From Octopus vulgaris (taxonomy: Eukaryota), in contig OX597825.1 in the NCBI GenBank assembly GCA_951406725.2, forward strand, positions 45,012,001 to 45,076,000: a DNA stretch of 64,000 nucleotides, read 5' to 3'. The position numbers and the translations under genes were made by a program. Below the pieces are notes generated by a model that saw only the letters and a program-made list of their open reading frames with translations, was not told where the DNA came from and made no database searches. Positions 1 through 40,303 of this stretch are shown piece after piece (the first letter of the stretch is position 1; every line of letters starts with the position of its first letter).

Positions 1-1185
1 ACATTTTGGATTTTTCTTGATGTTTTCTATGGCTCTCTTTTCTGCATTGTTACGTTCTTCATCATAGTGTTGTTTTAGATTGTCTTCTAATCTGTATATT
101 TGGTCAAGGACTTTCTGTAATTCATGTTTTGATGTCAGCTTAGATGTTTTGTTTCTTAGTCTTGACCTTTTGCGCATCAGGATCTTTCGCTCCCGTGGTA
201 CAGGTTTTTTTGTGGATTTGGTTTTCTTAAGAGGAATATTTTTTGCACATATTTCTTCGATCTTGTTTAAGAATTTCTTGTGTTTATCTGGCCCAGTAAG
301 GTAGAGATCCCAGTCAATGATTTGTAACTGGTTGTTAATAGTTTCCCAATTTGCCTGGTGATAATCATACCTGCATAGCTTTGGCATGTCCTTTTGTTTA
401 AGAGTTGTGGCATTGGGCTCATTACCAATGTGTAAATGCATTTCAATAATATTGTGGTCTGAAAGGATTGTTGGGGTTGAGTGAAGGTCAAATAGCGTGT
501 CCTCGTTGTTGGTGAAAACCAAGTCGATCGTATTATTATTTCTTGTTGCTTCTGTCATCATTTGTTTGAGGTATAATTTCTCTGTGACTTCCAACAGTTT
601 GGCTGCCTGTATTTGTTCAGCTTTTGTCCCCAGTTTTAGTATGTGTCCATGTGGCCAGATGATGTTAGGGAAGTTGAAGTCACCAAGGAGGCTAATGTCT
701 GGCATTGGACTCGCCATGTTTCCCAGAATTTGTTGGAGCTTTGTCAGTGGCTCAGTGAAGGATAATGTTGGGCTGTTTGGCGGTCTGTACATTATTGTTA
801 CAACTGTATTAAGTTGGATGATTTTTATGCACAGCAGGTTGCAGTAGGCATTTGATTCATTGACAAGTTCTATGCATGCATAGGTATCATGGATATACAT
901 GATAACGCCCCCATGGGATCTGCCTTGTCTATCACATCTGATGATGTTGAATCTATTGATTGTGATTTCGCTGTTGCGGATGTTTTCGTTGAGATGACTT
1001 TCAGTAATTCCAATTATTTTGGAGTTGTTTTCTGTTGCTAATTCTTCCAAGAAAGGGACTTTACACTGTTTTGTTTTCGGATAAAGACCCTGGATATTTG
1101 CTGTTATTATGCTTGTTGTACAGGATACATCTGTCCTATTGTTGGCAAGACTGTTGTAGTTGCTGGGACTGTGCTGACTGGATAT
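1..1185 (-). CDS. LINE ORF2, N-terminal AP-like endonuclease (partial, open to the window edge)
   Basis: Manual translation is stop-free from 1185 to 1: ITANIQGL, IIGITESHL, RCDR..HGGV, MYRPP, LLGDFNFPNI, TIDLVFTN, LSDHNII. Absent from the ORF track, probably because no stop lies inside the window. Confidence 0.88.
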   Translation of the reverse strand, partial: MSSQHSPSNYNSLANNRTDVSCTTSIITANIQGLYPKTKQCKVPFLEELATENNSKIIGITESHLNENIRNSEITINRFNIIRCDRQGRSHGGVIMYIHDTYACIELVNESNAYCNLLCIKIIQLNTVVTIMYRPPNSPTLSFTEPLTKLQQILGNMASPMPDISLLGDFNFPNIIWPHGHILKLGTKAEQIQAAKLLEVTEKLYLKQMMTEATRNNNTIDLVFTNNEDTLFDLHSTPTILSDHNIIEMHLHIGNEPNATTLKQKDMPKLCRYDYHQANWETINNQLQIIDWDLYLTGPDKHKKFLNKIEEICAKNIPLKKTKSTKKPVPRERKILMRKRSRLRNKTSKLTSKHELQKVLDQIYRLEDNLKQHYDEERNNAEKRAIENIKKNPKC

Positions 1186-2465
1186 TCAGTCTGCTGGGCT
1201 GTCTGTATTTGTTGTATGTGCCCTGTAAGTCCAGGTGTCAGCCTTTGTATCAATGTTGCCTGGTTTTGCTGAGTCATCTGTATGGAGTACAGCTGTTGTT
1301 GTAGTTGGTAGATTATGCCTAAAAAACTGCTTTCATTCATTACTATATCGAATTTCTGCGAGTTTGGGTTTGTTACAGCTGATGTATGCAATTGAGTAGC
1401 ATGATTTTCATTCACTGTTGAGCCATGACCTGGTTTCCACATTTTTGGGAAATGGTTTTCATACCCTGCTGAGCTTGGTCCTGGTGGTGTGGGTTCAGTA
1501 GTTTTTATGCGAATTGTACCCTTCCGGTGCATAAATTTGCAATTCTCGCCAAAACATTCTTTTTTTCTCAGCGAATTGCGGCACATCTTTGGGTGAAGGA
1601 GTTCACATTCTCGGCCATTTTGGCATCCTTTTTTTCGATCAGTACCGAAGTTGATATATGGTTTGCATGGTTTGGGGTGACTGTACGTGCACCCTGTACC
1701 TGAAAGACCATGTTTGCACTTGTTGCGCCTGTAATGGATACATACTGGCCTTTCTTCATTTGAGCGTTTGCTCTGAATCTGTTTCTTTTCGTGGGAGGTT
1801 TGGTCTTTTTCTGCAGGATCTCCTGTTTCTTGTTTTGTAGGTGTTTGCATGTCATTGTCTTCATTCTTGTCATTTACAAGAGGCACTTGGATGGCCTGTG
1901 TGTGGCAGGATTTATTTGCCATGTCAGTTTCGCCAATCAATGTCTGTTTAGAACGGCCTGTCTGTGGTAGGGTCCTAGGTTCATTCGTTATTGTGGCCCT
2001 TGGTGAACAATAACCGCATAGCCAGTGTAAGCCTAGAATATCTGGAATGGTGTAGTTATTTATCTTTTTTAAGTAGCACACTTCGTGTATTCCTTGTCCA
2101 CAGATGAAGCATGCCAAAGCTGGTTTTTGGCCAAATGTAATGCAGTACTGTTTGTCACACATTGTGCAAGTCTCCGGGAGGAAGTTTTCAATCCTTGTTA
2201 TAATCCAGTTGGTGAGGTTTGATTTTGTGAGCTCAACTTGGACACCATCATTCAAGAAAGCTGCTGCTTTCTTTAATATCGTAAACTTACAGTTGGTGAA
2301 AATATTTTTGTATATTGCTCCACTTTCCTGTTTGATATCATATTTCGACAAGACACTTTTTATATCTTGATTTTGTGTTGATGAGATGATTTTCAATATG
2401 ATGTCTGTGGCCAGGCAAGTGTTGCTCTCTGAGCTGGCAGTCCGTGGATTTCCGTTACCCGTCAT
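1107..2465 (-). CDS. LINE ORF1, 452 aa, with a PHD finger and three CCCH zinc fingers
   Basis: C4HC3 pattern CTMC..CFIC..H..C..WLCGYC; CCCH motifs CIHYRRNKCKHGLSGTGCTYSH, CKPYINFGTDRKKGCQNGRECELLH, CRNSLRKKECFGENCKFMH; lies directly upstream of the endonuclease ORF. Confidence 0.88.
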   Translation of the reverse strand: MTGNGNPRTASSESNTCLATDIILKIISSTQNQDIKSVLSKYDIKQESGAIYKNIFTNCKFTILKKAAAFLNDGVQVELTKSNLTNWIITRIENFLPETCTMCDKQYCITFGQKPALACFICGQGIHEVCYLKKINNYTIPDILGLHWLCGYCSPRATITNEPRTLPQTGRSKQTLIGETDMANKSCHTQAIQVPLVNDKNEDNDMQTPTKQETGDPAEKDQTSHEKKQIQSKRSNEERPVCIHYRRNKCKHGLSGTGCTYSHPKPCKPYINFGTDRKKGCQNGRECELLHPKMCRNSLRKKECFGENCKFMHRKGTIRIKTTEPTPPGPSSAGYENHFPKMWKPGHGSTVNENHATQLHTSAVTNPNSQKFDIVMNESSFLGIIYQLQQQLYSIQMTQQNQATLIQRLTPGLTGHIQQIQTAQQTEYPVSTVPATTTVLPTIGQMYPVQQA

Positions 2466-2839
2466 CGTTTATGTGGGCGGTGGATTGTGAATAGCTTGAG
2501 ATTTAGAATTGTTTGACTTGAATGGAGAGGGGGAAAGGAGCAGTGGTTGATTTTGTACACTGGCTGAGATAGTAGTAGTAGTAGCAATGGTACTTGAGTT
2601 GTTAGTGGAGCTATGGTGGTGGGATATGGAGGAAGTAAGAGTGGTTGGGATGGGTCACTGGCGAGGTAGAATGGAATGTTTGGCTTTGGCCACTAGGAGT
2701 AGTAGGGGAGAGAGGATGAAGAAGGAGAAGTAGCAGTAGAAGATGGAAACAATGATGATGACGATAATGACGATGATGATGGTGATGCAGTGGGTCTATT
2801 AGTTCTTTTAGCTGCTGATGTGAATGTTGTAGTTGTATT

Positions 2840-3725: not shown

Positions 3726-4020
3726 ATCTTGAAACTCCCTTTGGTCATGACTGACTGTGGGATTGCACCTCAGGCACAAGTCCGGGCAAGGTTGTTTATG
3801 GCAGAAAGTTACCAGCCTCCCTCTCCACGCCACCTCAGGCACAAGTCCGGGCAACTCATTTTTAAGGTTGTTTATGGCAGACCAGCAGTCATGTCTTCAC
3901 ATACCTCTTTAATCTCTCATACCAGCCTCCGAACCGCTAAGTTACGGGGACATAAGCACACCAGCATCGGTTGTCAAGTGATATTGAGGGTGACAAACAC
4001 AGACACACAAACATATACAC
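3726..4020 (-). repeat. Composite of SINE/LINE-tail fragments
   Basis: Shares GACAACCGATGCTGGTGTG..CCCCGTAACTTAGCGGTTCGG (minus strand) with repeats near 6150 and 6560; internal GGCACAAGTCCGGGCAA duplication. Confidence 0.5.
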
Positions 4021-4030
4021 ACACATACAT

Positions 4031-4074
<44 letters not shown>

Positions 4075-4075
<1 letters not shown>

Positions 4076-5660
4076 AGATAGGGGTTGAAAATTCAACCCA
4101 GCCATGGGATAATATATATCCAATATACTGCTAGATAGGTACCTCAACAAAATTAATACATAGATGTTAAAAATTGTCAAACAATCAGTTCATCCATTGT
4201 ATTATATCAAAGGTACATAAAATACTCGTAAATTAATACTACAAAATTAGAGAATGGAGAAACATACTTAAATCAGTAAAACATCAACTATCCGATGATA
4301 CTCAATCCATTTTAATACAGCCATTACATATGAGTCTTTAGTGTAATGGTCTTTGGTAGGACATAGGTACATCCTTCATTGATGAATTGATCAAGTATTT
4401 TCTCCATTCTTCTAGGGTGACATACATGATCACAAGGAACAAATATACTACACTAGGGTGTATTCACATGCACTATTAATATTTAAATCAATAAATGGAT
4501 GCTTATATTACACCAGTATGAGCAATTCAGGTTCCTCAAAAGATAAATTTAGGTTATAAAATGAGATAGGGGTTGAAAATTCAACCCACCATGGGATAAT
4601 ATATATCCAATATACTGCTAGATAGGTACCCAACAAAATTAATACATAGATGTTAAAAATTGTCAAACAATCAGTTCATCCATTGTATTATATGGGTAAA
4701 GGTAATAAAATTACCGTAAATTAATACTACAAAATTAGAGAATGGAGAAACATACTTAAATCAGTAAAACATCAACTATCCGATGATACTCAATCCATAC
4801 TTTAATACACCATTACATATGAGTTAGTGTAATGGTCTTTGGTAGGGATAGGTACATCCTTCATTGATGAATTGATCAGTATTTTCTCCATTCTTCTAGC
4901 AGTAATGATCAAAGGAACAAATATACTACACTAGGGTGTATTCACATGCACTATTAATATTTAAATCAATAAATGGATGCTTATATTACACCAGTATGAG
5001 CAATTCAGGTTCCTCAAAAGATAAATTTAGGTTATAAAATGAGATAGGGGTTGAAAATTCAACCCACCATGGGATAATATATATCCAATATACTGCTAGA
5101 TAGGTACCCAACAAAAATAATACATAGATGTTAAAAATTGTCAAACAATCAGTTCATCTATTGTATTAAATGGGTAAAGGTAATAAAATTACCGTAAATT
5201 AATACTACTTACCCATATAATACAATGGATGAACTGATTGTTTGACAATTTTTAACATCTATGTATTAATTTTGTTGGGTACCTATCTAGCAGTATATTG
5301 GATATATATTATCCCATGGTGGGTTGAATTTTCAACCCCTATCTCATTTTATAACCTAAATTTATCTTTTGAGGAACCTGAATTGCTCATACTGGTGTAA
5401 TATAAGCATCCATTTATTGATTTAAATATTAATAGTGCATGTGAATACACCCTAGTGTAGTATATTTGTTCCTTTGATCATTACTGCTAGAAGAATGGAG
5501 AAAATACTGATCAATTCATCAATGAAGGATGTACCTATCCCTACCAAAGACCATTACACTAAAGACTCATATGTAATGGTGTATTAAAGTATGGATTGAG
5601 TATCATCGGATAGTTGATGTTTTACTGATTTAAGTATGTTTCTCCATTCTCTAATTTTGT
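4075..5660. repeat. Tandem-then-inverted array of a ~478-bp unit flanked by (TA)n
   Basis: Units start GAGATAGGGGTTGAAAATTCAACCC at 4075, 4563 and 5041; 5209-5660 is the reverse complement of the unit. Confidence 0.95.
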
Positions 5661-5685
5661 TATATATATATATATACATATATAC

Positions 5686-5848
5686 AACGGGCTTCTTTCA
5701 GTTTCCGTCTACCAAATTCACTCACAAGGCTTTGGTCAGCATGAGGCTATTGTAGAAGACACTTGCCCAAGGTGCTGTGCAGTGGGACTGAACCCAGAAC
5801 CATGTGGTTTGTAAGCAAGCTACTTACCACACAGCCACTCCTATGCCT
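5686..5848 (-). mobile_element. tRNA-derived SINE (5' half)
   Basis: A-box-like TGGCTGTGTGG and B-box-like GGTTCAGTCCC, then CCTTGGGCAAGTGTCTTCT..GGTAGACGGAAACTGAAAGAAGCCCG; a second copy lies near 6348-6485 (+). Confidence 0.75.
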
Positions 5849-6119
5849 ATATATAAATATATTCATTTATACATACAAATATGTACATAGCTAAATATAT
5901 ATGTATATATACATGCATATATGGGTACAGGACATTAAAAAACGTTGAACACAATGAGAAACAAGAACATAGAAAACAAACTTTTTTTGAACAATGAAAA
6001 ATACACACAGAAAAATGAGACATGCAACATAAAAGAATATTCCTCTTCATCAGTGTCCCTGTTGCATGTATGTATGCATGTATGTATGCATGTATATATC
6101 TATGTGTGTGTGTTATTGT

Positions 6120-6483
6120 ATCTGTGTTTATCCCCCTCATCACTGCTTGACAACTGGTGTTGGTGTTTACGTCCCCCATAACTTAGTGATTCTGCAAAAA
6201 GAGACCGATAGAATAAGTACTAGGCTGTAAAACATAATTCTTGGGACCGATTTGTTAGACTTAAACCCTTCAAGGCAGTGCTCCAATATGGCCACAATCA
6301 AACGACTGAAACAAGTAAAAGAATAAAAGAATATACATATATATTATAGGCACAGACATGACTTGGTAAGAAGCTTGCTTTCCAAACACATGGTTCCAGG
6401 TTCAGTCTTATGTGCAGCATCATGGGAAAGTTTCTTCTATAGCCTCAAGTGGATTTGGTAGACAGAAACTGAAAGAAGCCTGA

Positions 6484-6522
<39 letters not shown>

Positions 6523-6655
6523 GTTTCTGTGTTTGTGTTTGTCCCCCCACCATCATATGACAACCAATGTTGGTGTGGTTACATCTCTGTAACTTAGCAG
6601 TTCAACAAAAGAGACCAATAGAATAAATACTAGGCTTACAAAGAATAAAGAATAA
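6120..6655 (+). mobile_element. SINE cluster (3' halves and a decayed tRNA head) split by microsatellites
   Basis: Repeated CTTAG..AAAAGAGACC.ATAGAATAA.TACTAGGCT and GACTGAAACAAGTAAAAG segments. Confidence 0.65.
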
Positions 6656-6730: not shown

Positions 6731-6743
<13 letters not shown>

Positions 6744-8729
6744 GAAGTTGTGTGTGTGTCTGTCTCCTACGATTTAGATTCCTAACTACTCCCACATTTT
6801 GCGGTGCAGTTTCACCAAATTCGGGTATCTTATAGTCGTGATTCATATCGAGCCTGTCTAGGTATTAGCGCATGTCTACGATGAGTCTACGATTTAAAAA
6901 ATAATTTACCATAATTTTTTTCCATTTTAACGCATATTTTTTAAATAAAGGGAAGGCGGCGGAGTTGGCGTCCATGCTCACACCTGCACCTGTATTGCTT
7001 ATCCCTCTTCTTCCCTCCCTCGTGAAGCTGTGGGGAAGGGAGTGTAAGGAAATCAACGTCGTAAAGCGTTGTCAAGGAGACCAGCGTTCTTTTAGAACAA
7101 CGACTTCATGGCTTAAAGACACCAAAACAGAAATGGCTAAGAAAGCCCAAAAGCAAATTCTACAAAATCGGGAAACACGCCACACAGGGAAGGTTTCCCG
7201 TGCAAAGAATTTGCACAACCGAATGTTACAGTTGTTGCACAACTTTTACTTAAAAAATATTATCCCGGTGGTGGCGGTGGCGGTGGTGCTGGTAGTGGTG
7301 ATGGTGGTCGTGGTCGTGGTGGTCGTCGTGTTTGTGGTGGTGGTGGTGGTGGTGGTGGTGGTGGTGGTGGTGGTGTTGTTGTTGGTGGGGGGGGTGATGA
7401 TGGTGGTGGTCGTGGTGGTCATGATGGTGGTGGTGATGGTCATGGGCGTAGTGGTGGTGGTGGTCATGGTGGTAGTGGTGATGGTGGTGATGGTGTTGGT
7501 CGTCGTGGTGGTGGTGGTGGTGGTGGCTGAAGCTGTCGTCTGGGTTCTTCCAATTTTTTCGTGTGTCGGTGGCAGCGTTAGCGTTCATGCTCGCACCTGC
7601 ACCTGTGTAGCTCCTCCCCTTCTTCCCTCCCTCGTGAAGCGTTGTCAAGGAGACCAGCGTTCTTTTAGAATAACGACTTCATGGCTTGAAGTCGCCAAAA
7701 CAGAAATCGCTAAAAAAGCTGAAACAGATCCACAAAAACGGCAAAAACCGCCACACAGGGCAGGTTTCCTGTGCAAACAATTTGCACAACCGAATGTTTT
7801 AGTTGTTGCACAAATCTTTATATCTATATATATAAAACTGTAGTTGTGTGAGTGTCTGTCCCCTTCGATTTAGATTCCTAACTACTCCCACATTTTGCGG
7901 TGCAGTTTAACCAAATTCGGGTATCTTATAGTCATGATTCATATCGAGCCCGTCTGAGTATTAGCGCGCGTCTACGATGAGTCTACGATTTTAAAAATAA
8001 TTTAACATCCTTTTTTATTCCATTTTAATGCATAATTTTTCGTGTGTCGATGGCGGCGGAGTTGGCGTCCATGGTCACACCTGCACCTGTTTGCTTCTCC
8101 CCTTCTTCCCTCCCTCGTGAAGCTGTGGGGAAGGGAGTGTAAGGAAATCAACGTCGTAAAGCGTTGTCAAGGAGACCAGCGTTCTTTTAGAACAACGACT
8201 TCATGGCTTGAAGACACCAAAACAGAAATGGCTAAGAAAGCCCGAATTGGCATCTATAAGGGAAGTAACTCTCTAAAAATGCTTATATAGTTATTTCCTT
8301 TACAAACCCGAGCAACGCCGGGCGATACTGCTAGTTATATATAAAAGTGAAGTTGTGTGTCTGTCTCCTACGATTTAGATTCCTAACTACTCCCACATTT
8401 TGCAGTGCAGTTTAACCAAAACCGGGTATCTTATAGTCGTGATTCATATCGAGCCCTTCTGGGTATTAGCGCGTGTCTACGATGAGTCTATGATTTAAAA
8501 AAAAATTTACCATCATTTTTTCCATTTTAATGCATTTTTTCACTATTATATAAGGGAAGTAACTCTCTAAAAATGTCTACGATGAGTCAACAATTTAAAA
8601 AAAAAAATACCATCATTTTTTATTCCATTTTTAATGCATTTTTTTGCTATCTTTTTGCTATAACTCTCTAAAAATGCTTATATAGTTATTTCCCTTACAA
8701 ACCCGAGCAACGCCGGGCGATACTGCTAG
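6731..8729 (+). mobile_element. Three tandem non-autonomous Helitron-like elements (~6731-7820, 7821-8334, 8336-8729)
   Basis: Each starts TATATAAAA.TG.AGTTGTGTG..GATTTAGATTCCTAACTACTCCCAC; copies 2 and 3 end with hairpin CCCG-AGCAACGC-CGGG then CTAG|T at 8334 and 8729. Confidence 0.75.
7266..7530. repeat. (GGT)n-like microsatellite inside the first Helitron-like copy
   Basis: Imperfect GGT/GAT/CGT triplets; source of the poly-V/H/T ORFs. Confidence 0.95.
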
Positions 8730-9557
8730 TATATATATAATATAATACGCACACACACACGCACACTGCTATTAGTACTGTAGAACATACCTCCATGTTT
8801 TTTAGCCAACAATGTGTTTTACACTGATTGTAAACAATCTTTCTGTGTGCGGACAGAGAAAGAGGGAACAAATGTATGCTTCTTTCAGATCTTGTTGGAA
8901 TTGTCATCAGCAATTGTGCACTTTTAGTATGTGTCCGCAAACGCACTGATTATAAATCCACCAATATTAAGGGTCAAAATATACTGGATAGACCAACTTG
9001 CACACTTAACATGTTTCTAGGTCACTACATCACACAAAAAATTATTGGTGTGTTAACAGTTTTGTTTTATTTCTATAATGTACTACAGAACACATATTCA
9101 TAGTTTTTTTTTTTTCATTTTTTGTGTTACAACTGTACATATTGTACTGATGTATTGCTTACAATTGTCATAATACAATGGCTGAAACATGTAAATTTAG
9201 CTCTAAGGTATCTATTCATTATCACTGAACTATGTGCATTACCAGTACTTATTTTATAAAGCCTGAAGGGATGAATGGCAATGTCTATCCTAGAATAATT
9301 TAAACTGAGCTATGAGATGTATGAAACTTAGTACTACAACATATTTAGTCTAGGGCTCATTCAGATAAATATACAAAATAAATATTTTAAGCAAACTGCG
9401 AATGCAGATACAAAACTTTTATAAAAGTGTTTGCCAAATTATTGGAACATGCATTCTTTCTCTCTGCCAATCAAACAAAAGCTCTCATATTCATTGTACA
9501 TTTATGATTTATATTCCACTTCAAAATCTTAATATTCAGTAAAAGAATAAATCTTAC

Positions 9558-9832
9558 CGTTTGTTCACAGATGAATGTAGCAAAAATTACAGTTACATAT
9601 CCTAAGATTCCCCTGACTTTGCATGAATTGGCTATTTTGAAACAAGCACAATTGATTCTTGGTGGTTCAATTGAACACTGTGGAACAGATAAACCCCAAG
9701 GATCAAAAGGGTTTTGAGATATAATTTGATCTCCAGTACACAGTATTTGGGTTTCTCCATTTGGTGCAATCAGAAGATCTACTTGTACTGCTGTGACGAA
9801 ATCACTGGGAGGATATGCTTCAATAATTCCTC
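9558..9832 (-). CDS. IQCH: IQCH-like exon F (275 nt): (G)GIIEAYPPSDFVTAVQVDLLIAPNGE...FATFICEQT
   Basis: TTTCAG acceptor, GTAAGA donor, phase matches the previous exon; resembles recalled IQCH [26 protein letters not shown]. Confidence 0.88.
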
Positions 9833-11412
9833 CTGAAATGGTGAACATTTAATTGAAGAAATATACAGAAACAAAATTATCTGAAACCAAATTTATTACC
9901 TGCTTTGATTTCCAGTATTAAGTTACTAAATCTCTCAAGGAAATGTATAAATATCTACAACCTCATTTTTTTTCTTATTTGTGCTTATTGATATATATGA
10001 AGTACATCAACAAGCAATTGGCTGGCTGCTTACATAACAAACTTTATAGAAGTTTATAAAGTCCTTTCCACTATGAATCAAACAAGCATAGATATTACAT
10101 TTTTGTCGTATTTAAGAACTTCAATCCCAAGCATTTGTCCTCTTCAGGTAATAGAATTACACCATCATTCCACTACCTGGCTAAAATCTTCAAAATCTCT
10201 ACTAAAATAAAGTGTAATTAAATATTAGGTTTCTTTTGTGAAAACACACAAAGAAAGAAAATGTTTTAGACCACTTTCTAAATATTTTAAATCTAGAAGA
10301 AATAGAAATTTAGTCTTGCTCCCAATTCTTCACCCAGTGCATATTAGAAGGTATCCAGTGCAAAACTTTCTACCTAACATGCTAACCTAATGCCACAATC
10401 AGTCTAACAAGAGACCTTCCACTAGGTCATTCTGTCTGCTAGAAATAGCAACCTATTGAGTCTCAAATCACATTCTTCAAAAAGGAAAAGCACATCAAAT
10501 AAGGTAGTTCTGGGGGCATCATGTCTAAAAAAGCTGAAATAACCAGGGAGGGAATGAATTTGATAAAAAATCTGTTCAATCAGATCTGATTTGAGGCTAA
10601 CAACGGCAACCCAGTGTGATATGTGTCCTCAGTCTATTCCTTCTACCTTTTGTCAATAGTATCTACTTCTCTAAACATGCTTGCTCTATCACAACCCACT
10701 GAATTACATATGTAATAGATCACTCACTCTAAAATATGCGGTTACCAGAACCAAATAGACAGAGGCTAATCAACAGCAACAACATATCCATACTACTGAT
10801 ATGTGGGATCATGAGTCAAATTTCAAGAAACTTGATTTCTTGAAATTTGTCATTTCTCATATGGCATCTTCCCTTGAAACTTTGCAAATAGCCATTTCAA
10901 TATATTTGTTGATGATCTACAAACAGAAAATATTCCCATATGCAACTAATGCTATTTTCACAAGCTCAAATAGAAGAAATATTTAATATATTCAAAACCA
11001 GAAATGAACTGATCTGACTTTTGTTACTTAATACTTTCTTTATGATACTAAATTATTCATTCAAAATATAGACACATTAATTTTGTGACAGAGAAAACAA
11101 ACTGCATCATGGAATGTATAATTCCAAAATATAAAACTTGTGTCAATTCACTTGAGTGACCAATTGATTGTATTACATCAACAGGTCAATTGACACCAAA
11201 GTTCTTTAGGAGTAACAGTTGTTCTTTCTCTTGATAGAAATACGTACAGGTTCAACTAACTGCCAAAAATATTACTATTTGTCATTTCTACCATATTCAA
11301 TGGCATTTCAAACTATTTTTATCATGGTAACTGGATAGCTTATTTTTTTTACAAATTCAGAAATGAAATGGAAAAGGAAGACCATAAGTTTACAAATATA
11401 TCATAACATTAC

Positions 11413-16976: not shown

Positions 16977-19546
16977 GACAGTGTGTGAGAGAGAATCGTG
17001 ACGTGGTAGGAGAGAAATGTGTTCGCAAGGATGACGGTTCACTTGCGCTAAATGAGGTTGCTGAATGAGGAAAATGAATGGGATAAAGAGAGTCTGCCGA
17101 ATGTCGACCCAACAGAGGGACCAGCAATCCGAGTTAACAGTTCCTTAGTAGTTAAGGCAATTACAAGCATGAAAACAGGGAAAGCTCCACGCCCATCAGG
17201 AATTACTGCAGAGATGCTCAAAATATCTGGTAGTGTCGGCTATAGCCTAGTCACCCGTATAGTTAACCAGGTGATACACGAAGGAGTCATACCCAATGAC
17301 TGGTGTAGCAGCATAATAGTCAACTGCTACAAAGGTAAAGGTGACGCCCTAGATACGAATAACTACAGGGGTATCAAGCTGCTGGATCAGGTAATGAAGG
17401 TTACGGAGAGGGTTATAGCCCAATTAATTAGAGAGAGAGTTAGCTTAGATGAGATGCAGTTTGGGTTCGTGCCAGGAAAAAGTACTACTACCTAGCCAAA
17501 GATAAGCCCCTGTACCTGGCTTTTGTTGACATGGAGAAAGCCTTTGACAGGGTCCCCCGATCCCTTATCTGGTGGTCAATGAGGAAACTAGGGATAGATG
17601 AATGGTTAGTGAGAGCTGTGCGAGCCATGTACAGAGACGCTGCTAGTAAGGTGAGGGTTGGCAACGAGTACAGTGAAGAATTCCAGGTAGAGGTTGGGGT
17701 CCACCAAGGTTCAGTCCTCAGTCCCCTCCTATTTATCATAGTCCTCCAGGCAATAACGGAGGAATTCAAGACAGGATGCCCCTGGGAGCTCCTCTATGCT
17801 GATGACCTTGTTCTAATTGCTGAGTCACTATCAGAACTGGAGGAGAAGTTTCAGGTGTGGAATCAAGGATTAGAATCGAAGGGCCTTAGAACCAACCTAG
17901 CCAAAACCAAAGTCCTAATAAGTAGGAAGGTGGACCAATCACAAACGACTTCAGGTAGATGGCCCTGCTCGATCTGAAAAAAGGTGTAGGTAGAAACTCT
18001 ATAAGGTGCACCAGGGGTAAGCTATGGACACATAAGAGGTGCAGCAATGTCAAAGGAAGGCTAACTAGGAAAATAGTTTTTGTCTGTGGCAGATGCTCAG
18101 GAGCAATAAACACTGGAAATGTGCAGAGACCAACTTCTACCACGTTCCAGGGAGACAAACTAGAAGTAGTTGATAGCTTCCGCTACCTAGGTGACCAAGT
18201 CAGTAGTGGGGGTGGGTGTGCTAAAAGTGTAACTGCTAGAGTAAGAATAGCCTGGGCAAAGTTTAGAGAGCTCTTACCCCTGCTGGTGACAAAAGGCCTC
18301 TCGCTCAGAGTAAAAGGCAGACTGTATGATGCGTGTGTACGTACAGCCATGCTACATGGTAGTGAAACATGGGCCGTGACTGCTGAGGATATGCGTAAGC
18401 TTGCAAGAAATGAAGCCAGTATGCTCTGATGGATGTGTAATGTCAGTGTTCATAATCGACAGAGTGTAAGTACCTTGAGAGAAAAGTTGAACCTAAGAAG
18501 CATCAGTTGTGGTGTGCAAGAGAGACGTCTGCGCCGGTATGGTCATGTGACAAGAATGGCTGAAGATAGTTGTGTGCAAAAGTGCTACACCCTAGCAGTT
18601 GAGGGAACCTGTGGAAGAGGTAGACCCAGGAAAACCTGGGACGAGGTGGTGAAGCATGAACTTCGAACTTTAGGTCTCACCAAGGAAATGACTAGAGACC
18701 GAGACCTATGGAAGTATGCTGTGCGTGAGAAGACCCGGCAAGACTAGTGAGGCCATAACCCGTGGCCTCTACCTGGTATGTAGCCAGTTGACTTATACAT
18801 ACCTTTCCTTCTTGGGACACAAAACTCCACTTGCGAAGACCCGTTGAGGCAAGTGAAAATCAAAAAAATTAAAAAATCAAAAAATCAAAATCAAAATCAA
18901 AATCAAATCAGATATCAGAAAGCAGAACCAAAATCGAAGTCGATCAACATCAATGGAAATTGCGGCTGTGATACCAGTGCCGGTGACAAGTAAGCGAACC
19001 ATCCGATTGTGGCCATTGCCAGTACCGCCCCGACTGGCCTCCGTGCCGGTGGCACATAAAAGCACCATCCGTTCGTGTCCATTGCCAGCCTCGCCTGGCC
19101 CCCATACCGGTGGCACATAAAAGCACCATCCGTTCGTGGCCACTGCCAGCCTCGCCTGGCCCTCGTGCCGGTGGGACGTAAAAAGCACCATCCGTTCGTG
19201 GCCGTTGCCAGCACCGCCCCGACTGGCCTCTGTGCCGGTGGCACGTAAAAGCACCATCCATTCGTGTCCGCTGCAAGCCTCGCCTGGCCCCCGTGCCGGT
19301 GGCACGTAAAAGCACCATCCGTTCGTGGCCGTTTGCCAATACCGTCTGGTGCCTGTGCGGGTGGCACGTAAAAAGCACCCACTACACTCGCGGAGTGGTT
19401 GGCATTAGGAAGGGCATCCAGCCGTAGAAACACTGCCAGATCAGACTGGGCCTGATGCAGCCTTCTGGCTTCACAGACCCCAGTTGAACCGTCCAACCCA
19501 TGCTAGCATGGAAAACGGACGCTAAATGATGATGATGATGATGATG
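16977..19546 (+). mobile_element. 5'-truncated RTE-clade LINE: broken RT, repetitive 3'UTR, (GAT)n tail
   Basis: NYRGIKLL, QFGFVPGKST, DMEKAFDRVPR, GVHQGSVLSPLLF, LLYADDL, FRYLG, MLHGSETW, RGRPRKTW, with small deletions and stops. Confidence 0.93.
18990..19385 (+). repeat. ~57-62-bp GC-rich tandem repeat in the RTE 3'UTR
   Basis: About six copies of AAAAGCACCATCCGTTCGTGGCC..GCCAGC..GTGCCGGTGGCACGTA. Confidence 0.9.
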
Positions 19547-28789: not shown

Positions 28790-31646
28790 CAGGGGTCTCC
28801 AAAGTTTTCCAGCGGAGGGCCACATTGCTGAATTTTTAAAGCTACGGGGGCCAAGGTTCTAAATTATTTATTTTACCAAAATAATATAAATAAATAGTGA
28901 ATTAATAATTAAAAAAGGTTATTTATTCAGTACATAATCACAATGTATATAATATCAGTAACAATTAACATGTTTTTTTTAACTTTGATCAATAGGGGAA
29001 ACATGAAATTGTTTCATTTCTGACAAAATTTTGTCCAACTGAGGTTCAAAATGAGTGGTTCCAATAACAAGCAATGCATTTAAATGTTCATCAGACAATT
29101 GTGATCTGTAGCGGGATTTTGTGTATTTCATCTTTGAAAAAGTCTTCTCACACAAATATGTGGTGCCAAAAACTGAAATGAATTCACAGGCAAACCTCCT
29201 TAAATGAAGAAATTGGTCGGATGGAAGGCATTTGTAGAATTCAATCAAATTTCCCTCTTTATATTTGTCCTTCAGGATGTCATTGGATTGCAAATCAATA
29301 ACTTCCATTTGTAACTCAGAAGGTAAGTCTCCAATAACAGAGTTAAATGGATTTTCAAAAATTCTTAGTTTTGAAGAACATGCATCAAGATCAGAAAAAC
29401 GTTCTTCAAACTGTTGTTTCAAAGCTAAAATGACATCTTGAGCAAACAAGTTTGGAAATGGAGTGGCAGCTTCCTGTCTATATTTGTCACATCGTGAAAA
29501 ATGAGTAAAGCAGCTTCTTGTTAACTGACTTTCAAATAGTATTAATTTCTTACAAAAAGCTTTCACCTTTGAGTACAAATCACAGATGAGTGAAGTTTCA
29601 CCTTGTATCCGTAGGTTGAAATCATTGAGATGCATAGTTAAATCGGCTGAAAATGCTAATTTCCAGAGCCATTCACTGTCTTTGAGCAACACCTGTGAAT
29701 GGTTTTTCTCATTTAAAAATATTTCAATTTCAGTTCGAAGCTCAAAAAATCTAGCCAGAATTTTTCCATAGCTAAGCCATCTTACTGAAGTATAGTAAGG
29801 TAGGTCTGGAAACTCAGCATTCATTTCCTCCAAGAAATCACGAAATTGGCGATGTTTGAGTCCATGAGATCTTATGTAGTTAACAGTAGAAATCACAGGA
29901 TCTAATACAGATGATAAATCAAGATGCTTTCCACACAGTGCTTGCTGATGAAGAATACAATGCAATACCAAAGGTTTCAATCCACCGGAATTCTCAATTA
30001 CTTTGTTAATTTGCCCAACTAAGCCCTTTTTGGTTCCACACATATTTCTGCCACCATCTGTTGTTATGCATTTTAGTTTTTTCCATTCCAAATTATACTC
30101 AGCCACTGACTTTTCCACTTCTCTAAAAATATCTATGCCTGTTGTTGTTCCATGCATGCTGTGCACAGATACAAGTTCCTCAGTAATCTCAAAATTGGCA
30201 TTTATTCCTCTGATGAACAATAACAATTGGGATGTGTCTGATACATCAATTGACTCATCAAGTGCAACAGAAAAGCATACAAACTTGCTGGCTTTGTCTT
30301 TTAGCTGTGATTTAATATTTCTTTCAATATGTTCAACCCTATGAGCAACAGTGTTCGCAGAAAGACTAATTGCGGAAAATAAATCTACGTTTTCTGGACA
30401 CATTTCCTTAGCTACCTCATTCAAGCACTTTTTAATAAGTTCACCATCTGTAAATGGCTTACCTTTCTTCGCCAAAAGGTTAGCAACATGGAAGCTTGCT
30501 CTTGTTGCTCTCTCTTTTTCTACAGCCTTCTTCTTGAAAACAAACTGCATTGATGATAAATTCTTCTTTAATTTGTCAAATTTCTCTTTACGTAGCTGTC
30601 CAATGAATTGGTAGTACTGTGATGAATGCTTTTTTTCATAATGTCTCCGAATGTTGTACTCTTTAAGTACTGCAATTGTGTCGGTGCATATAACGCATAG
30701 TGCCTTGTTGTTTGACTCTATGACAAAATAGTCTATGTTCCATTGTTCCTTAAAAACTCTACACTCAGAGTCGATTTTTCGTTTTCTTCCTTGAGCTAAC
30801 ATTTTTACCATGGGTCGACAGATTTTGCTCGACGATATATGTAAAAGGACGAAACAAGTAAAAACAATATTCACAGGTCACTCGATACGTGCATTCACTT
30901 CGGCAGCGACGACGACAAATGACTCACACTTGTGCACAACGAAAACGCCAAGTCTGTGCTGACTGACGGAATGCGCATCGAACTTTACTCCACGCTGATT
31001 GGCGACTGCACCAGGATTAGAAACCACCACACAACGTCAGGCTCAACCCTCTCTATTCATCGCTCGTGAGATGTAGGTAACATCGATAAATCGATATTTG
31101 TCTTCTTTTATTATACTAGGCACGGGACTTTTATTAACGTCATACTTGTCGTATCTGCTCTCTCGACAGTTGACGGAATAGGTTGACTTTTCTGCGACAT
31201 CAATAAAGCTAGAAATTGAATCTCTGCTTCATTGTAAGCAGCACCATCCATCTCACTGACATTCGCCTATTATCTAAGATGAATGATAGGTAGCTCCATA
31301 GCGAAGTTAATTCATTTTATGGTGGTTCTGATGGGTCAGTTAAAACGGGGGGAGTGGAAAAGAACCTATATTTACACTAAAGTTTAGTGTATAAATTTTT
31401 AATTCGCCGGCGCAATTTAAAGACATTAATTGATGGCAAATCAATTAGCGTCGTCTTGCGTCTATTTGCTGTACTATATTTGTCAAACGTATTAAAAGGG
31501 GTGTAAAGTATATTTGTTTTTGTATGATTTCGGCAAGGCTTGTTTTTCGACATTTGTTTTATAATTTTGGAGGACAGCTCGGCGGGCCGGATTAAAAACC
31601 TTGGCGGGCCGAATCCGGCCCGCGGGCCGTACTTTGGAGACCCCTG
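28790..31646 (-). mobile_element. Full-length hAT DNA transposon (Buster/Charlie group), 2857 bp
   Basis: Perfect 16-bp TIR CAGGGGTCTCCAAAGT at both ends; perfect 8-bp TSD CTCTAGTC (28782-28789, 31647-31654); GC-rich subterminal GGCCCGC repeats. Confidence 0.97.
28979..30811 (-). CDS. Intact hAT transposase, ~610 aa from the ATG at 30811 (GTF2IRD2/SPIN/OC1-like family)
   Basis: BED-type finger CVIC..RRHYEKKH, ALDES, ITTDG, HCILHQ, VRWLS, TYLCEKTFS, RSQLSDEHL; no stops. Confidence 0.95.
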   Translation of the reverse strand: MVKMLAQGRKRKIDSECRVFKEQWNIDYFVIESNNKALCVICTDTIAVLKEYNIRRHYEKKHSSQYYQFIGQLRKEKFDKLKKNLSSMQFVFKKKAVEKERATRASFHVANLLAKKGKPFTDGELIKKCLNEVAKEMCPENVDLFSAISLSANTVAHRVEHIERNIKSQLKDKASKFVCFSVALDESIDVSDTSQLLLFIRGINANFEITEELVSVHSMHGTTTGIDIFREVEKSVAEYNLEWKKLKCITTDGGRNMCGTKKGLVGQINKVIENSGGLKPLVLHCILHQQALCGKHLDLSSVLDPVISTVNYIRSHGLKHRQFRDFLEEMNAEFPDLPYYTSVRWLSYGKILARFFELRTEIEIFLNEKNHSQVLLKDSEWLWKLAFSADLTMHLNDFNLRIQGETSLICDLYSKVKAFCKKLILFESQLTRSCFTHFSRCDKYRQEAATPFPNLFAQDVILALKQQFEERFSDLDACSSKLRIFENPFNSVIGDLPSELQMEVIDLQSNDILKDKYKEGNLIEFYKCLPSDQFLHLRRFACEFISVFGTTYLCEKTFSKMKYTKSRYRSQLSDEHLNALLVIGTTHFEPQLDKILSEMKQFHVSPIDQS

Positions 31647-35509: not shown

Positions 35510-35781
35510 CATGTATATATATATATATATATATAAAATTAATTAAGGGTAGAAATTGATATTTATCAATTAAGACCAGTGGTCTAGCATGTTAAAAAAG
35601 AATCCGAAGATTAAAATATTTATATATACCAATTAAGGACTGAACACGAAAAGTGGACAGTCAACATGCTAGATATAGACGTCAAATCGTCATTCTCCAC
35701 AAAAGATTATGTTCTCAGATCAAACTCAACACAAAACCATAGCAATAAACAAGTGAAAAATATACGAAATAAAATAATTAC

Positions 35782-35846
35782 CCATGTACTAACTTAGTTT
35801 CAGCTGTTATTTTCCGCAAGGAAAACTGCAGCCATCATCAGTATGG
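35782..35846 (-). ncRNA. Type I hammerhead ribozyme motif, copy 1 (stem I A-C mismatch)
   Basis: Minus strand reads CCATA CTGATGA TGGCTG..CAGCT GAAA CTAAGTTAG TA CATGG. Confidence 0.75.
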
Positions 35847-36286
35847 TCCGTTATAAATGTAATTTGCTGGACTAAATGCAAACACGATACCGAAATATCG
35901 CGTGCATGGAGTTCAGCCTATTACATTTGAATATATCTTTCAAATGCCTTTACTTTGGCGCGTTGAGACCCGAGAAAACTAGCCTGCAGCTAATAATTAG
36001 CAGCAGTTAATTTATCGGTTAGAGAACATTTATTTATATAAAATTAATTAAGGGTAGAAATTGATATTTATCAATTAAGACCAGTGGTCTAGCATATTAA
36101 AAAAGAATCCGAAGATTAAAATATTTATATATACCAATTAAGGACTGAACACGAAAAGTGGACAGTCAACATGCTAGATATAGACGTCAAATCGTCATTC
36201 TCCACAAAAGATTATGTTCTCAGATCAAACTCAACACAAAACCATAGCAATAAACAAGTGAAAAATATACGAAATAAAATAATTAC

Positions 36287-36351
36287 CCATGTACTAACTT
36301 AGTTTCAGCTGTTATTTTCCGCAAGGAAAACTGCAGCCATCATCAGCGTGG
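36287..36351 (-). ncRNA. Type I hammerhead ribozyme motif, copy 2 (stem I C-A mismatch)
   Basis: CCACG CTGATGA..GAAA CTAAGTTAG TA CATGG. Confidence 0.75.
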
Positions 36352-36791
36352 TCCGTTATAAATGTAATTTGCTGGACTAAATGCAAACACGATACCGAAA
36401 TATCGCGTGCATGGAGTTCAGCCTATTACATTTGAATATATCTTTCAAATGCCTTTACTTTGGCGCGTTGAGACCCGAGAAAACTAGCCTGCAGCTAATA
36501 ATTAGCAGCAGTTAATTTATCGGTTAGAGAACATTTATTTATATAAAATTAATTAAGGGTAGAAATTGATATTTATCAATTAAGACCAGTGGTCTAGCAT
36601 ATTAAAAAAGAATCCGAAGATTAAAATATTTATATATACCAATTAAGGACTGAACACGAAAAGTGGACAGTCAACATGCTAGATATAGACGTCAAATCGT
36701 CATTCTCCACAAAAGATTATGTTCTCAGATCAAACTCAACACAAAACCATAGCAATAAACAAGTGAAAAATATACGAAATAAAATAATTAC

Positions 36792-36856
36792 CCATGTACT
36801 AACTTAGTTTCAGCTGTTATTTTCCGCAAGGAAAACTGCAGCCATCATCAGCGTGG
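36792..36856 (-). ncRNA. Type I hammerhead ribozyme motif, copy 3 (stem I C-A mismatch)
   Basis: Same as copy 2. Confidence 0.75.
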
Positions 36857-37358
36857 TCCGTTATAAATGTAATTTGCTGGACTAAATGCAAACACGATAC
36901 CGAAATATCGCGTGCATGGAGTTCAGCCTATTACATTTGAATATATCTTTCAAATGCCTTTACTTTGGCGCGTTGAGACCCGAGAAAACTAGCCTGCAGC
37001 TAATAATTAGCAGCAGTTAATTTATCGGTTAGAGAACATTTGTCCACTTTTCGTGTTCAGTCCTTAATTGGTATATATAAATATTTTAATCTTCGGATTC
37101 TTTTTTAATATGCTAGACCACTGGTCTTAATTGATAAATATCAATTTCTACCCTTAATTAATTTTATATAAATAAATGTTCTCTAACCGATAAATTAACT
37201 GCTGCTAATTATTAGCTGCAGGCTAGTTTTCTCGGGTCTCAACGCGCCAAAGTAAAGGCATTTGAAAGATATATTCAAATGTAATAGGCTGAACTCCATG
37301 CACGCGATATTTCGGTATCGTGTTTGCATTTAGTCCAGCAAATTACATTTATAACGGA

Positions 37359-37423
37359 CCATGCTGATGATGGCTGCAGTTTTCCTTGCGGAAAATAACA
37401 GCTGAAACTAAGTTAGTACATGG
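37359..37423 (+). ncRNA. Type I hammerhead ribozyme motif, copy 4; predicted GUA cleavage after 37418
   Basis: CCATG CTGATGA T GGCTG CAG TTTTCC TTGC GGAAAA TAA CAGCT GAAA CTAAGTTAG TA CATGG: complete core with stems I, II and III. Confidence 0.85.
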
Positions 37424-37863
37424 GTAATTATTTTATTTCGTATATTTTTCACTTGTTTATTGCTATGGTTTTGTGTTGAGTTTGATCTGAGAACATAATC
37501 TTTTGTGGAGAATGACGATTTGACGTCTATATCTAGCATGTTGACTGTCCACTTTTCGTGTTCAGTCCTTAATTGGTATATATAAATATTTTAATCTTCG
37601 GATTCTTTTTTAATATGCTAGACCACTGGTCTTAATTGATAAATATCAATTTCTACCCTTAATTAATTTCATATAAATAAATGTTCTCTAACCGATAAAT
37701 TAACTGCTGCTAATTATTAGCTGCAGGCTAGTTTTCTCGTGTCTCAACGCGCCAAAGTAAAAGCATTTGAAAGATATATTCAAATGTAATAGGCTGAACT
37801 CCATGCACGCGATATTTCGGTATCGTGTTTGCATTTAGTCCAGCAAATTACATTTATAACGGA

Positions 37864-37928
37864 CCATGCTGATGATGGCTGCAGTTTTCCTTGCGGAAAA
37901 TAACAGCTGAAACTAAGTTAGTACATGG
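37864..37928 (+). ncRNA. Type I hammerhead ribozyme motif, copy 5
   Basis: Identical to copy 4. Confidence 0.85.
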
Positions 37929-38368
37929 GTAATTATTTTATTTCGTATATTTTTCACTTGTTTATTGCTATGGTTTTGTGTTGAGTTTGATCTGAGAACA
38001 TAATCTTTTGTGGAGAATGACGATTTGACGTCTATATCTAGCATGTTGACTGTCCACTTTTCGTGTTCAGTCCTTAATTGGTATATATAAATATTTTAAT
38101 CTTCGGATTCTTTTTTAATATGCTAGACCACTGGTCTTAATTGATAAATATCAATTTCTACCCTTAATTAATTTCATATAAATAAATGTTCTCTAACCGA
38201 TAAATTAACTGCTGCTAATTATTAGCTGCAGGCTAGTTTTCTCGGGTCTCAACGCGCCAAAGTAAAAGCATTTGAAAGATATATTCAAATGTAATAGGCT
38301 GAACTCCATGCACGCGATATTTCGGTATCGTGTTTGCATTTAGTCCAGCAAATTACATTTATAACGGA

Positions 38369-38433
38369 CCATGCTGATGATGGCTGCAGTTTTCCTTGCG
38401 GAAAATAACAGCTAAAACTAAGTTAGTACATGG
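38369..38433 (+). ncRNA. Hammerhead motif copy 6, GAAA changed to AAAA at 38414 (predicted inactive)
   Basis: Reads CAGCTAAAACTAAG instead of CAGCTGAAACTAAG. Confidence 0.7.
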
Positions 38434-38873
38434 GTAATTATTTTATTTCGTATATTTTTCACTTGTTTATTGCTATGGTTTTGTGTTGAGTTTGATCTGA
38501 GAACATAATCTTTTGTGGAGAATGACGATTTGACGTCTATATCTAGCATGTTGACTGTCCACTTTTCGTGTTCAGTCCTTAATTGGTATATATAAATATT
38601 TTAATCTTCGGATTCTTTTTTAATATGCTAGACCACTGGTCTTAATTGATAAATATCAATTTCTACCCTTAATTAATTTTATATAAATAAATGTTCTCTA
38701 ACCGATAAATTAACTGCTGCTAATTATTAGCTGCAGGCTAGTTTTCTCGGGTCTCAACGCGCCAAAGTAAAGGCATTTGAAAGATATATTCAAATGTAAT
38801 AGGCTGAACTCCATGCACGCGATATTTCGGTATCGTGTTTGCATTTAGTCCAGCAAATTACATTTATAACGGA

Positions 38874-38938
38874 CCATGCTGATGATGGCTGCAGTTTTCC
38901 TTGCAGAAAATAACAGCTGAAACTAAGTTAGTACATGG
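38874..38938 (+). ncRNA. Type I hammerhead ribozyme motif, copy 7
   Basis: Core intact; one substitution in the distal stem II hairpin (TTGCAGAAAA). Confidence 0.82.
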
Positions 38939-39093
38939 GTAATTATTTTATTTCGTATATTTTTCACTTGTTTATTGCTATGGTTTTGTGTTGAGTTTGA
39001 TCTGAGAACATAATCTTTTGTGGAGAATGACGATTTGACGTCTATATCTAGCATGTTGACTGTCCACTTTTCGTGTTCAGTCCTTAATTGGTA

Positions 39094-39260
39094 TCATCAT
39101 CATCATCATCATCATCGTTTAACGTCCGCTTTCCATGCTAGCATGGGTTGGACGGTTCAACTGGGGTCTGGGAAGCCCGAAGGCTGCACCAGGCCAGTCA
39201 GATGTGGCAGTGTTTCTACAGCTGGATGCCCTTCCTAACGCCAACCACTCCGAGAGTGTA
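39094..39260 (-). mobile_element. Short RTE 3'-end fragment with (GAT)n tail at the edge of the array
   Basis: (CAT)n followed by CGTTTAACGTCCGCTTTCCATGCTAGCATGGGTTGGACGG. Confidence 0.85.

Positions 39261-40267: not shown

Positions 40268-40303
<36 letters not shown>

What the first reader, a model, noticed from the sequence alone, without database searches (positions are those of the whole stretch)
4075..5660. Second tandem-inverted array of an unrelated, highly self-complementary ~478-bp unit with no recognisable hammerhead
Seen: the same architecture as the hammerhead array ((TA)n flanks, ~2.35 forward units, ~0.94 inverted unit) but no CTGANGA on either strand. The unit has many complementary segments: GGGTTGAA/TTCAACCC, TACTGCTAGA/TCTAGCAGTA, AGAATGGAGAAA/TTTCTCCATTCT, CCATTACA/TGTAATGG, TTGATCA/TGATCAA, TACATCCT/AGGGTGTA. 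A hammerhead-like but non-canonical segment TACATCCT.TCA.TTGATGA.A.TTGATCA..TGATCAA.AGGAAC..AGGGTGTA lies at ~4853-4940. Inference: a retrozyme-like structured RNA using a variant or unknown self-cleaving motif, or a ribozyme-free Penelope satellite.
Basis: partly seen in the sequence, partly recalled or inferred. Interest (0 to 1): 0.7.

Follow-up and report, generated by a model that had tools for sequence, protein, structure and literature searches.

The report
Ribozyme-free Penelope-type parasite repeat
A young, non-coding 478-base repeat has inserted as a tandem-plus-inverted array with the marks of Penelope-like retrotransposons but carries no hammerhead ribozyme, so it looks like a folded RNA parasite of those elements that spreads without cutting itself.

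Summary
The array is real: a forward arm of 2.35 units (4075-5208) and an inverted arm of 0.94 unit (5209-5660), inserted in the (TA)n tract of a dispersed repeat whose halves join elsewhere in the window. The unit folds far better than shuffles on both strands (z about -6.4 to -8). The strong fold comes from pairing between a very abundant 280-bp part and a 198-bp part that begins as its decayed inverted copy; two helices show compensatory changes in one relative (weak). The long arm's inner end abuts the short arm's outer end in unit coordinates, as twin priming on one multimeric RNA predicts. Best reading: a non-autonomous, ribozyme-free element mobilised by a (TA)n-targeting Penelope-like retrotransposon. 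A new variant of a known kind; an unknown ribozyme is not excluded.

The parts
3905..4033 (+). Left half of the dispersed SINE-like host repeat that received the insertion
   Evidence: Aligns to other copies at 40060-40270 and the reverse of 6330-6650, where it runs straight on into the right half; the label SINE is recalled
4034..4074 (.). (TA)n target tract at the left end
   Evidence: TRF (AT)19.5 at 4034-4072
4075..5208 (-). Long arm, 2.35 tandem units; inferred RNA sense is the minus strand, with its 3' end at 4075
   Evidence: Arm ends mapped; polarity inferred from (TA)n loose ends and by analogy with the neighbour array
4075..4561 (-). Unit 1, with many private indels (probably assembly error)
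   Evidence: 2 substitutions, 15 indel events against unit 2
4562..5039 (-). Unit 2, the 478-bp reference copy; lacks 3 bp at 4824 that units 1 and the inverted arm have
   Evidence: Alignment
5040..5208 (-). Partial unit 3; three substitutions, two of them alleles seen in the wider family
   Evidence: 4681 C>T and 4691 T>A table 3
5209..5660 (+). Inverted arm, 0.94 unit; inferred 3' end at 5660
   Evidence: 0 substitutions and 1 indel against unit 2
5661..5684 (.). TA-rich target tract at the right end
   Evidence: Sequence
5672..5850 (+). Right half of the host repeat
4544..4823 (-). Part B, shared with a far more abundant family; holds both clusters of (TA)n-joined termini (4543-4563 and 4724-4729)
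   Evidence: Summed depth about 7e4-9e5 in most bins of two DNA-type runs, loose ends
4824..5021 (-). Part A, specific to the 478-bp subfamily; its first 75 nt or so are a decayed inverted copy of the end of part B
   Evidence: Summed depth mostly 2e3-2e4; alignment to the reverse of B, score 67 against 38.6 +/- 5.9, 0 of 500 shuffles
4739..4894 (.). Long imperfect rod pairing part B with part A, closed by the hairpin 4809-4836
   Evidence: Helices with p>0.7 on both strands
4613..4904 (.). Helix 4613-4622 with 4895-4904; one compensatory change (4622 with 4895) in a relative
4531..4918 (.). Helix 4531-4537 with 4912-4918 (across the unit join); compensatory change 4531 with 4918 in a relative, with matched insertions on both sides
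   Evidence: tables 3, 4, 7
4853..4940 (+).
   Evidence: relative

Best explanation
A non-autonomous, non-coding element mobilised in trans by a (TA)n-targeting Penelope-like retrotransposon (PLE), without a hammerhead. Shown: the array interrupts a (TA)n tract; both of its ends recur as (TA)n-joined ends of other copies; the unit is multi-copy, folds strongly and has no hammerhead. Inferred, in order of falling confidence: (1) the RNA is the minus strand of the long arm, so both arms point outwards; (2) a donor tandem array is read through into a multimeric RNA; (3) the PLE endonuclease nicks (TA)n and the reverse transcriptase starts inside the RNA at one of two unpaired AU-rich linkers about 170 nt apart (near 4543-4563 and 4724-4729), so no RNA cut is needed; (4) here both target strands primed on one RNA of at least 3.3 units, the first cDNA stopping where the second began (twin priming; about 0.45 on its own); (5) the unit arose when an inverted, truncated copy of part B was captured as part A, and some of the resulting helices are now kept by selection (weak support). 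The helper is not identified; Hydra or Naiad clade elements are the candidates.
For: Empty site: the flanks join in 2 of the 3 other copies of the host repeat compared. Of 24 loose-end rows shown (142 in all), 5 are TA or CA/TA microsatellite and all 5 lie on the left of positions 4543, 4555, 4724 or 4728, matching both array ends; none lies on the right. Depth peaks start just right of those places and fall off. Head-to-head arms, an inverted truncated copy and (TA)n bias are described for PLEs (PMC8557442, PMC3846280, passages). The neighbour array has the same build with its hammerheads pointing outwards. No hammerhead: 0 hits with 0 or 1 core mismatch on either strand for two local descriptors that recover the neighbour's. 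PLE reverse transcription starts inside the RNA and did not need hammerhead cleavage in vitro (PMC11167929). Long arm ends at unit position 169, inverted arm's outer end is position 168 (about 0.02 by chance). The inverted arm is not a mirror of the DNA beside it (3 substitutions against partial unit 3, one indel against unit 2). Both terminus clusters are mostly unpaired (mean 0.82 and 0.78 against 0.35 overall on the minus strand).
Against: No autonomous partner was found and the unit shows no similarity to a PLE protein fragment (best tblastn E 0.61). No target-site duplication can be read in (TA)n. The offset between the two termini is about 170 nt, not the 30-40 bp tail in print. G-U wobble does not settle the strand: 4616 and 4883 keep a pair only on the minus strand, 4893 and 4576/4581 only on the plus strand, 4583 on neither; without G-U the strands fold alike (-104.1, -105.0). 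The neighbour array does not show the abutting geometry. Covariation rests on one 419-nt contig, with 24 of its 38 differences visible, P about 0.02-0.08, and the 30 letters left of 4827 in that contig do not keep the central hairpin arm (table 7). The inversion junction was not checked in reads, and the assembly is visibly error-prone here.
Confidence: 0.68

Rival explanations
1. The unit is only the truncated end (pseudo-LTR) of a longer, coding PLE; the fold is a neutral by-product of a captured inverted duplication.
For: Part B is 10-100 times deeper than part A and continues into other sequence beyond 4819-4824 in many contigs. Each part alone barely folds better than shuffles (z -0.3 to -2.3) and A aligns to the reverse of B. 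Both strands fold equally without G-U.
Against: The 478-bp join is seen in 3 of 4 runs laid, and a relative about 87% alike keeps the same period (454 + 24 letters). Two compensatory pairs and a matched helix extension in that relative. No coding remnant found.
Confidence: 0.13
2. A retrozyme-like circular RNA that uses an unknown or very divergent self-cleaving motif, possibly cutting near 4729/4730.
For: Size, low GC and strong self-pairing match animal retrozymes (PMC7229834). One arm's 5' end and the other's 3' end meet at 4729/4730, where family termini cluster, as a cut would also give. Rfam is a weak negative: it misses the neighbour's hammerhead too. An any-loop descriptor gave a zero-mismatch U3-A8 hit on the plus strand (1 of 60 shuffles had one).
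Against: That hit costs 44-48 kcal/mol against 2.0 for the neighbour's true hammerhead and its core is changed in common family alleles (4576). Copies along the array differ at family-polymorphic sites, which fits a linear multimer better than one circle. Hairpin-ribozyme loop motifs occur but without a usable loop A, and the relative has other letters over part of that loop B motif (table 5c).
Confidence: 0.08
3. A DNA-level element (Helitron-like rolling circle, or a palindromic miniature transposon) whose hairpins matter in single-stranded DNA.
For: Strand-symmetric folding; tandem units; a hairpin followed by CTAG at 4594-4621 recalls a Helitron end (recalled, not tested).
Against: The two array ends are different unit positions, so there are no terminal inverted repeats; the CTAG is internal and not at any terminus; head-to-head arms and one-sided (TA)n joins match the hammerhead-bearing neighbour.
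Confidence: 0.07
4. The inverted arm is an assembly artefact (a fold-back long read) on a plain tandem array.
For: Unit 1 has 15 indel events; about half of the stretch's sampled words are absent from every run, and 438 of 861 distinct 31-mers occur once.
Against: A fold-back read would mirror the adjacent DNA, and this arm does not; its outer end is a family terminus joined to TA; the flanks rebuild the host repeat.
Confidence: 0.04

Closest known systems
Animal non-LTR retrozymes (Cervera and de la Pena 2020, PMC7229834; Li et al. bioRxiv 10.64898/2026.07.22.740005)
   Same: Non-coding tandem units of a few hundred bases, low GC, strongly self-paired, multi-copy, proposed to be non-autonomous derivatives of PLE pseudo-LTRs. 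The neighbour array at 35536-39094 fits this class.
   Different: No type I hammerhead in the unit, which is the defining feature; circular RNA not tested; copy heterogeneity fits a linear multimeric template.
Non-autonomous Chlamys elements such as MRC1 of Chlamydomonas (Craig et al. 2021, PMC8557442)
   Same: Non-autonomous PLE derivatives with multicopy head-to-tail insertions in a clade mostly lacking hammerheads.
   Different: Algal; they resemble an autonomous family at the 3' end, whereas no partner is identified here.
Naiad PLEs (Craig et al. 2021)
   Same: Animal PLEs without canonical hammerheads, with (TA)n bias and tandem/inverted insertions.
   Different: Naiads code for endonuclease and reverse transcriptase; the paper calls them long inactive in cephalopods, while this array is young. 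No likeness seen by eye to the ends of the Octopus Naiad consensus shown.
Hydra-clade PLEs (Craig et al. 2021)
   Same: Insert into (TA)n; the neighbour's hammerhead has their palindromic helix III; a decayed endonuclease-like remnant at 41.3-42.1 kb resembles them by eye.
   Different: The paper reports hammerheads as universal in this clade; this unit has none and no ORF.
L1 twin priming (as described in PMC2837659)
   Same: Two inverted fragments of one RNA primed from the two target strands.
   Different: Described for L1 with poly(A) priming and target duplications; here inferred from one array of a PLE-type element.

Membership tests
Non-LTR retrozyme | Type I hammerhead in each unit | tested here: not met
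   0 hits with 0-2 mismatches; 0 with 0-1 and 6 with 2 mismatches, below the shuffle mean of 9.05 and each costing 13 kcal/mol or more; neighbour recovered as control
Non-LTR retrozyme | Short non-coding tandem unit, low GC | tested here: met
   478 bp, about 30% GC, stops in all six frames
Non-LTR retrozyme | Stable self-paired fold | tested here: met
   Circular z about -7, 58-66% paired
Non-LTR retrozyme | Self-cleavage and circular RNA in vivo | not testable with these tools
   Only contigs were available
Non-autonomous Penelope-like element | Partial tandem plus inverted truncated copy at the 5' end | tested here: met
   polarity inferred
Non-autonomous Penelope-like element | Insertion into microsatellite, (TA)n | tested here: met
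   Empty site; (TA)n loose ends
Non-autonomous Penelope-like element | Two preferred 3' ends separated by a 30-40 bp tail | tested here: inconclusive
   Two clusters found, but about 170 nt apart; finer spacing 4543/4555/4563 within one cluster
Non-autonomous Penelope-like element | 3' similarity to an autonomous PLE | tested here: inconclusive
   No genome held; a 26-nt match to the remnant at 41831-41855 is reached by 4 of 200 shuffles; tblastn negative; one 11-nt motif hit in the Craig supplement looks unrelated by eye
Hammerhead, U3-A8 or other core variant | Core flanked directly by stems I-III with a U-H site, foldable | tested here: not met
Hairpin ribozyme | Loops A and B with four helices | tested here: not met
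   Loop B-like words on the plus strand but no loop A on that strand (motifs recalled, numbering checked in PMC8216279 passages)
Other Rfam ribozymes and SECIS | Covariance-model match | tested here: inconclusive
   None at E up to 10, but the same search misses the neighbour's hammerhead; a simple SECIS pattern gave 0 hits

The most novel reading that the evidence does not exclude
The unit is an animal retrozyme-like RNA processed by a self-cleaving or protein-assisted RNA motif of a class not yet described, cutting near 4729/4730 on the minus strand, where one arm's 5' end, the other arm's 3' end and family-wide termini coincide and where the multi-helix fold leaves a free linker.
Probability: 0.08. 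Interest if true: 0.85.

Novelty: new variant of a known kind. Interest (0 to 1): 0.4.

Why it matters
The role of the hammerhead in Penelope-like elements and in animal retrozymes is open. A young, multi-copy unit that makes the same insertions as its hammerhead-bearing neighbour, without the ribozyme, is a natural control: it suggests that a folded RNA presenting internal priming sites is enough. The abutting arm ends give a genome-wide test of twin priming as the source of PLE inverted ends, for which self-priming has been proposed (PMC3846280). Such elements escape retrozyme searches, which select on the hammerhead.

Tried and rejected
No genome is held. Exact-pattern scans found nothing in metagenome, viral (33) or prokaryote contigs (34). 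Earlier-findings look-ups by sequence, place and one word set were empty. No RNA holder is listed on record; two runs laid are only guessed to be RNA, so nothing is claimed on expression. I first read two contigs (X1 record 1, X5 record 24) as leaving the unit at 4824 into a possible ORF; the length of X1 record 1 fits wholly inside the unit (96+3+150+84 = 333), so the break is probably the 3-bp deletion private to unit 2, and the lack of cover at 4768-4815 in X5 is not used. A B-only unit of about 290 bp was suggested by loose ends behind 4819-4824 but not shown. A shared 3' motif with the neighbour unit is marginal (15 of 300). A splice-donor-like word at 4588 varies in the family. A coding origin of part B on the plus strand was rejected. 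Counting G-U against A-C mismatches did not give the strand. The remnant at 41.3-42.1 kb gave no relevant Pfam, PDB or Atlas hit; of 5 phmmer hits 4 look repeat-driven and 1 (P0005, E 5.6e-4) has PLE-type endonuclease motifs by eye.

Full report
Observation. TRF finds period 478 with 2.4 copies at 4067-5208 after an (AT)19.5 tract. Mapped on unit 2 (4562-5039), the long arm runs 4075-5208, from unit position 2 to position 169 of the third unit, and the inverted arm runs 5209-5660, its inner end at position 138 and its outer end at position 168. The inverted arm differs from unit 2 by no substitution and one indel, partial unit 3 by three substitutions, and unit 1 by 2 substitutions and 15 indel events; the last pattern suggests assembly error (inference). 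All six frames have stops. The window looks like a cephalopod genome by recalled repeat types; this was not tested.

Folding. The unit folds better than all 100 dinucleotide shuffles on each strand (z -7.98, -7.86) and as a circle (z -7.2, -7.3 against 25 shuffles). Of 22 other 478-nt stretches sampled in the window, two reached below -8 against mononucleotide shuffles (one in the neighbour array, one at 42001, a microsatellite-rich stretch), against -10.1 for the unit. The signal comes from pairing between two parts, 4544-4823 (B) and 4824-5021 (A), each of which alone folds little better than shuffles (z -0.3 to -2.3). A aligns to the reverse of B (score 67 against 38.6 +/- 5.9, 0 of 500 shuffles), most clearly over its first 75 nt.

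No hammerhead. CTGANGA is absent on both strands. A local type I descriptor found 0 hits with up to 2 core mismatches on either strand and found the neighbour's ribozyme. After reading the Hydra-clade hammerhead table I relaxed it to allow spare bases on both sides of helix II: 0 hits with 0 or 1 mismatch, 6 with 2 mismatches (shuffle mean 9.05), each costing 13 kcal/mol or more, against 2.0 for the neighbour's. Against my reading, an any-loop version gave a zero-mismatch U3-A8 hit on the plus strand, which 1 of 60 shuffles matched; it costs 44-48 kcal/mol and its core base 4576 varies widely in the family. Rfam finds no ribozyme or SECIS at E up to 10 but also misses the neighbour's hammerhead, so it is a weak negative.

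Insertion site. The left (3905-4033) and right (5672-5850) flanks join across a short CA/TA tract in 2 of the 3 other copies of the same dispersed repeat compared; the third aligned only to the left flank. The array therefore inserted into a microsatellite. An IQCH-like exon lies on the minus strand at 9474-9848 (Pfam E 2e-32); whether the array is in an intron is not known.

The family. 20 of 24 listed runs, from 7 studies and one organism, hold about half of the stretch's sampled words; 438 of its 861 distinct 31-mers occur once, 249 of them only in unit 1, which can account for the missing half. I laid 4 of these runs, of 4 studies, on 4496-4975; all are contigs, and one could be the assembly's source. 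In the two DNA-type runs part B has summed depth of about 7e4-9e5 in most bins and part A mostly 2e3-2e4. An exact 108-nt piece of A has depth 4211 in X15, where four flank-bearing or divergent contigs show 34-58; this suggests roughly a hundred unit copies, though the tool warns that depth is no copy number. The 478-bp join is seen in 3 of 4 runs. Of 24 loose-end rows shown (118 not shown), 5 are TA or CA/TA tracts, all to the left of 4543, 4555, 4724 or 4728. The array's own ends correspond to 4563 and 4729. So both ends are family termini, and the fixed ends face outwards, as do the hammerheads of the neighbour array. Wobble evidence on strand is split and does not confirm this.

A relative. 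One 419-nt contig (X5 record 25, 38 differences in 290 aligned letters, period 454 + 24) covers both sides of several helices. I assigned 24 of its differences by depth and distance to the piece end. It shows two clean compensatory changes, 4531 with 4918 and 4622 with 4895, and, by my reading of tables 3, 4 and 7, matched insertions behind 4538 and 4910 that add four pairs and lose one. Two such changes have P about 0.02-0.08 under simple assumptions. Against: 4583 breaks a pair on both strands, and the letters left of 4827 do not keep the central hairpin arm. Other relatives keep the stem at 4570-4587 with a changed loop (loose ends at 4582-4583).

Mechanism. PLE insertions are partial tandems with an inverted truncated copy at the 5' end and a microsatellite bias; Naiads lack hammerheads; non-autonomous Chlamys elements such as MRC1 make multicopy head-to-tail insertions (PMC8557442). 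In vitro a PLE starts reverse transcription inside its RNA, on AT-rich DNA, and hammerhead mutants do not block insertion (PMC11167929). Both terminus clusters here lie in mostly unpaired linkers. The long arm's inner end (position 169) abuts the inverted arm's outer end (168), about 0.02 by chance, as twin priming on one RNA predicts (PMC2837659). Fold-back is disfavoured because the inverted arm does not carry the alleles of the DNA beside it, and two of those alleles occur in the wider family, which also fits a linear multimer better than one circle; polishing errors could mimic this. The neighbour does not abut (ends 124, 134, 2, 34), so the geometry rests on one array. The helper is unknown: Octopus Hydra and Naiad families are listed with (TA)n preference; by eye their ends show no likeness to the unit.

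What is known. It works like a non-LTR retrozyme or non-autonomous PLE but fails the retrozyme test. Searches listed no paper whose title or abstract start describes this element or a hammerhead-free animal retrozyme; Repbase and Dfam could not be searched, so it may be catalogued.

Papers seen: bioRxiv 10.64898/2026.07.22.740005, parts 1-3 of 5; PMC11167929 and PMC4209133, parts 1-2 of 4; PMC7229834, parts 2-3 of 6; PMC8557442, passages and supplement parts 2, 52, 53 of 59 plus four look-ups by term; PMC3846280, PMC8967140, PMC8490949, PMC2837659, PMC8216279, passages. Supplements of the bioRxiv preprint (retrozyme families) were not seen; the unread parts of the Craig supplement hold full Naiad consensus sequences that bear on the helper question.

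Verdict. A real, young, structured, ribozyme-free PLE-type satellite element; new variant of a known kind; interest 0.4; confidence in the best explanation 0.68; unknown ribozyme 0.08.

Noticed in passing
window 35536-39094: Neighbour array of 505-bp units with a type I hammerhead whose palindromic helix III matches the Hydra-clade pattern; Rfam misses it. In both arrays all four inner arm ends lie within about 33 nt of an outer-end position (about 0.006 by chance, post hoc).
   Followed up: partly
window 39283-39850: A third AT-rich, TA-flanked element with a 129-bp imperfect palindrome at about 39516-39644; it gives the sub-threshold Rfam mir-2944 match.
   Followed up: partly
window 41273-42100 (+): Broken remnant with motifs like the linker and GIY-YIG endonuclease of Hydra-type PLEs; matches P0005 (tblastn E 4e-8, circular since P0005 was found with it); no Pfam hit.
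   Followed up: partly
window near 52336 (-): A lone zero-mismatch hit of the hammerhead descriptor outside the arrays.
   Followed up: no
window 9474-9848 (-): Exon of an IQCH-like gene (PF24923, E 2e-32).
   Followed up: partly
window 1107-2468 (-) and 1-1100: 453-aa ORF with a weak PHD match and CCCH-like motifs followed by endonuclease-like sequence; probably ORF1 and the start of ORF2 of a LINE (recalled; one search gives PHD E 0.033).
   Followed up: no
window 6739-8730: Several partial copies of a repeat of about 500 bp that ends in a short hairpin and CTAGT, like a Helitron end (recalled).
   Followed up: no
window 28979-30877 (-): Uninterrupted 632-aa ORF that looks like a hAT-type transposase (recalled).
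   Followed up: no
window 17052-18755 (+) and 53491-55845 (-): Two oppositely oriented, about 90% alike copies of a broken LINE reverse transcriptase region.
   Followed up: no
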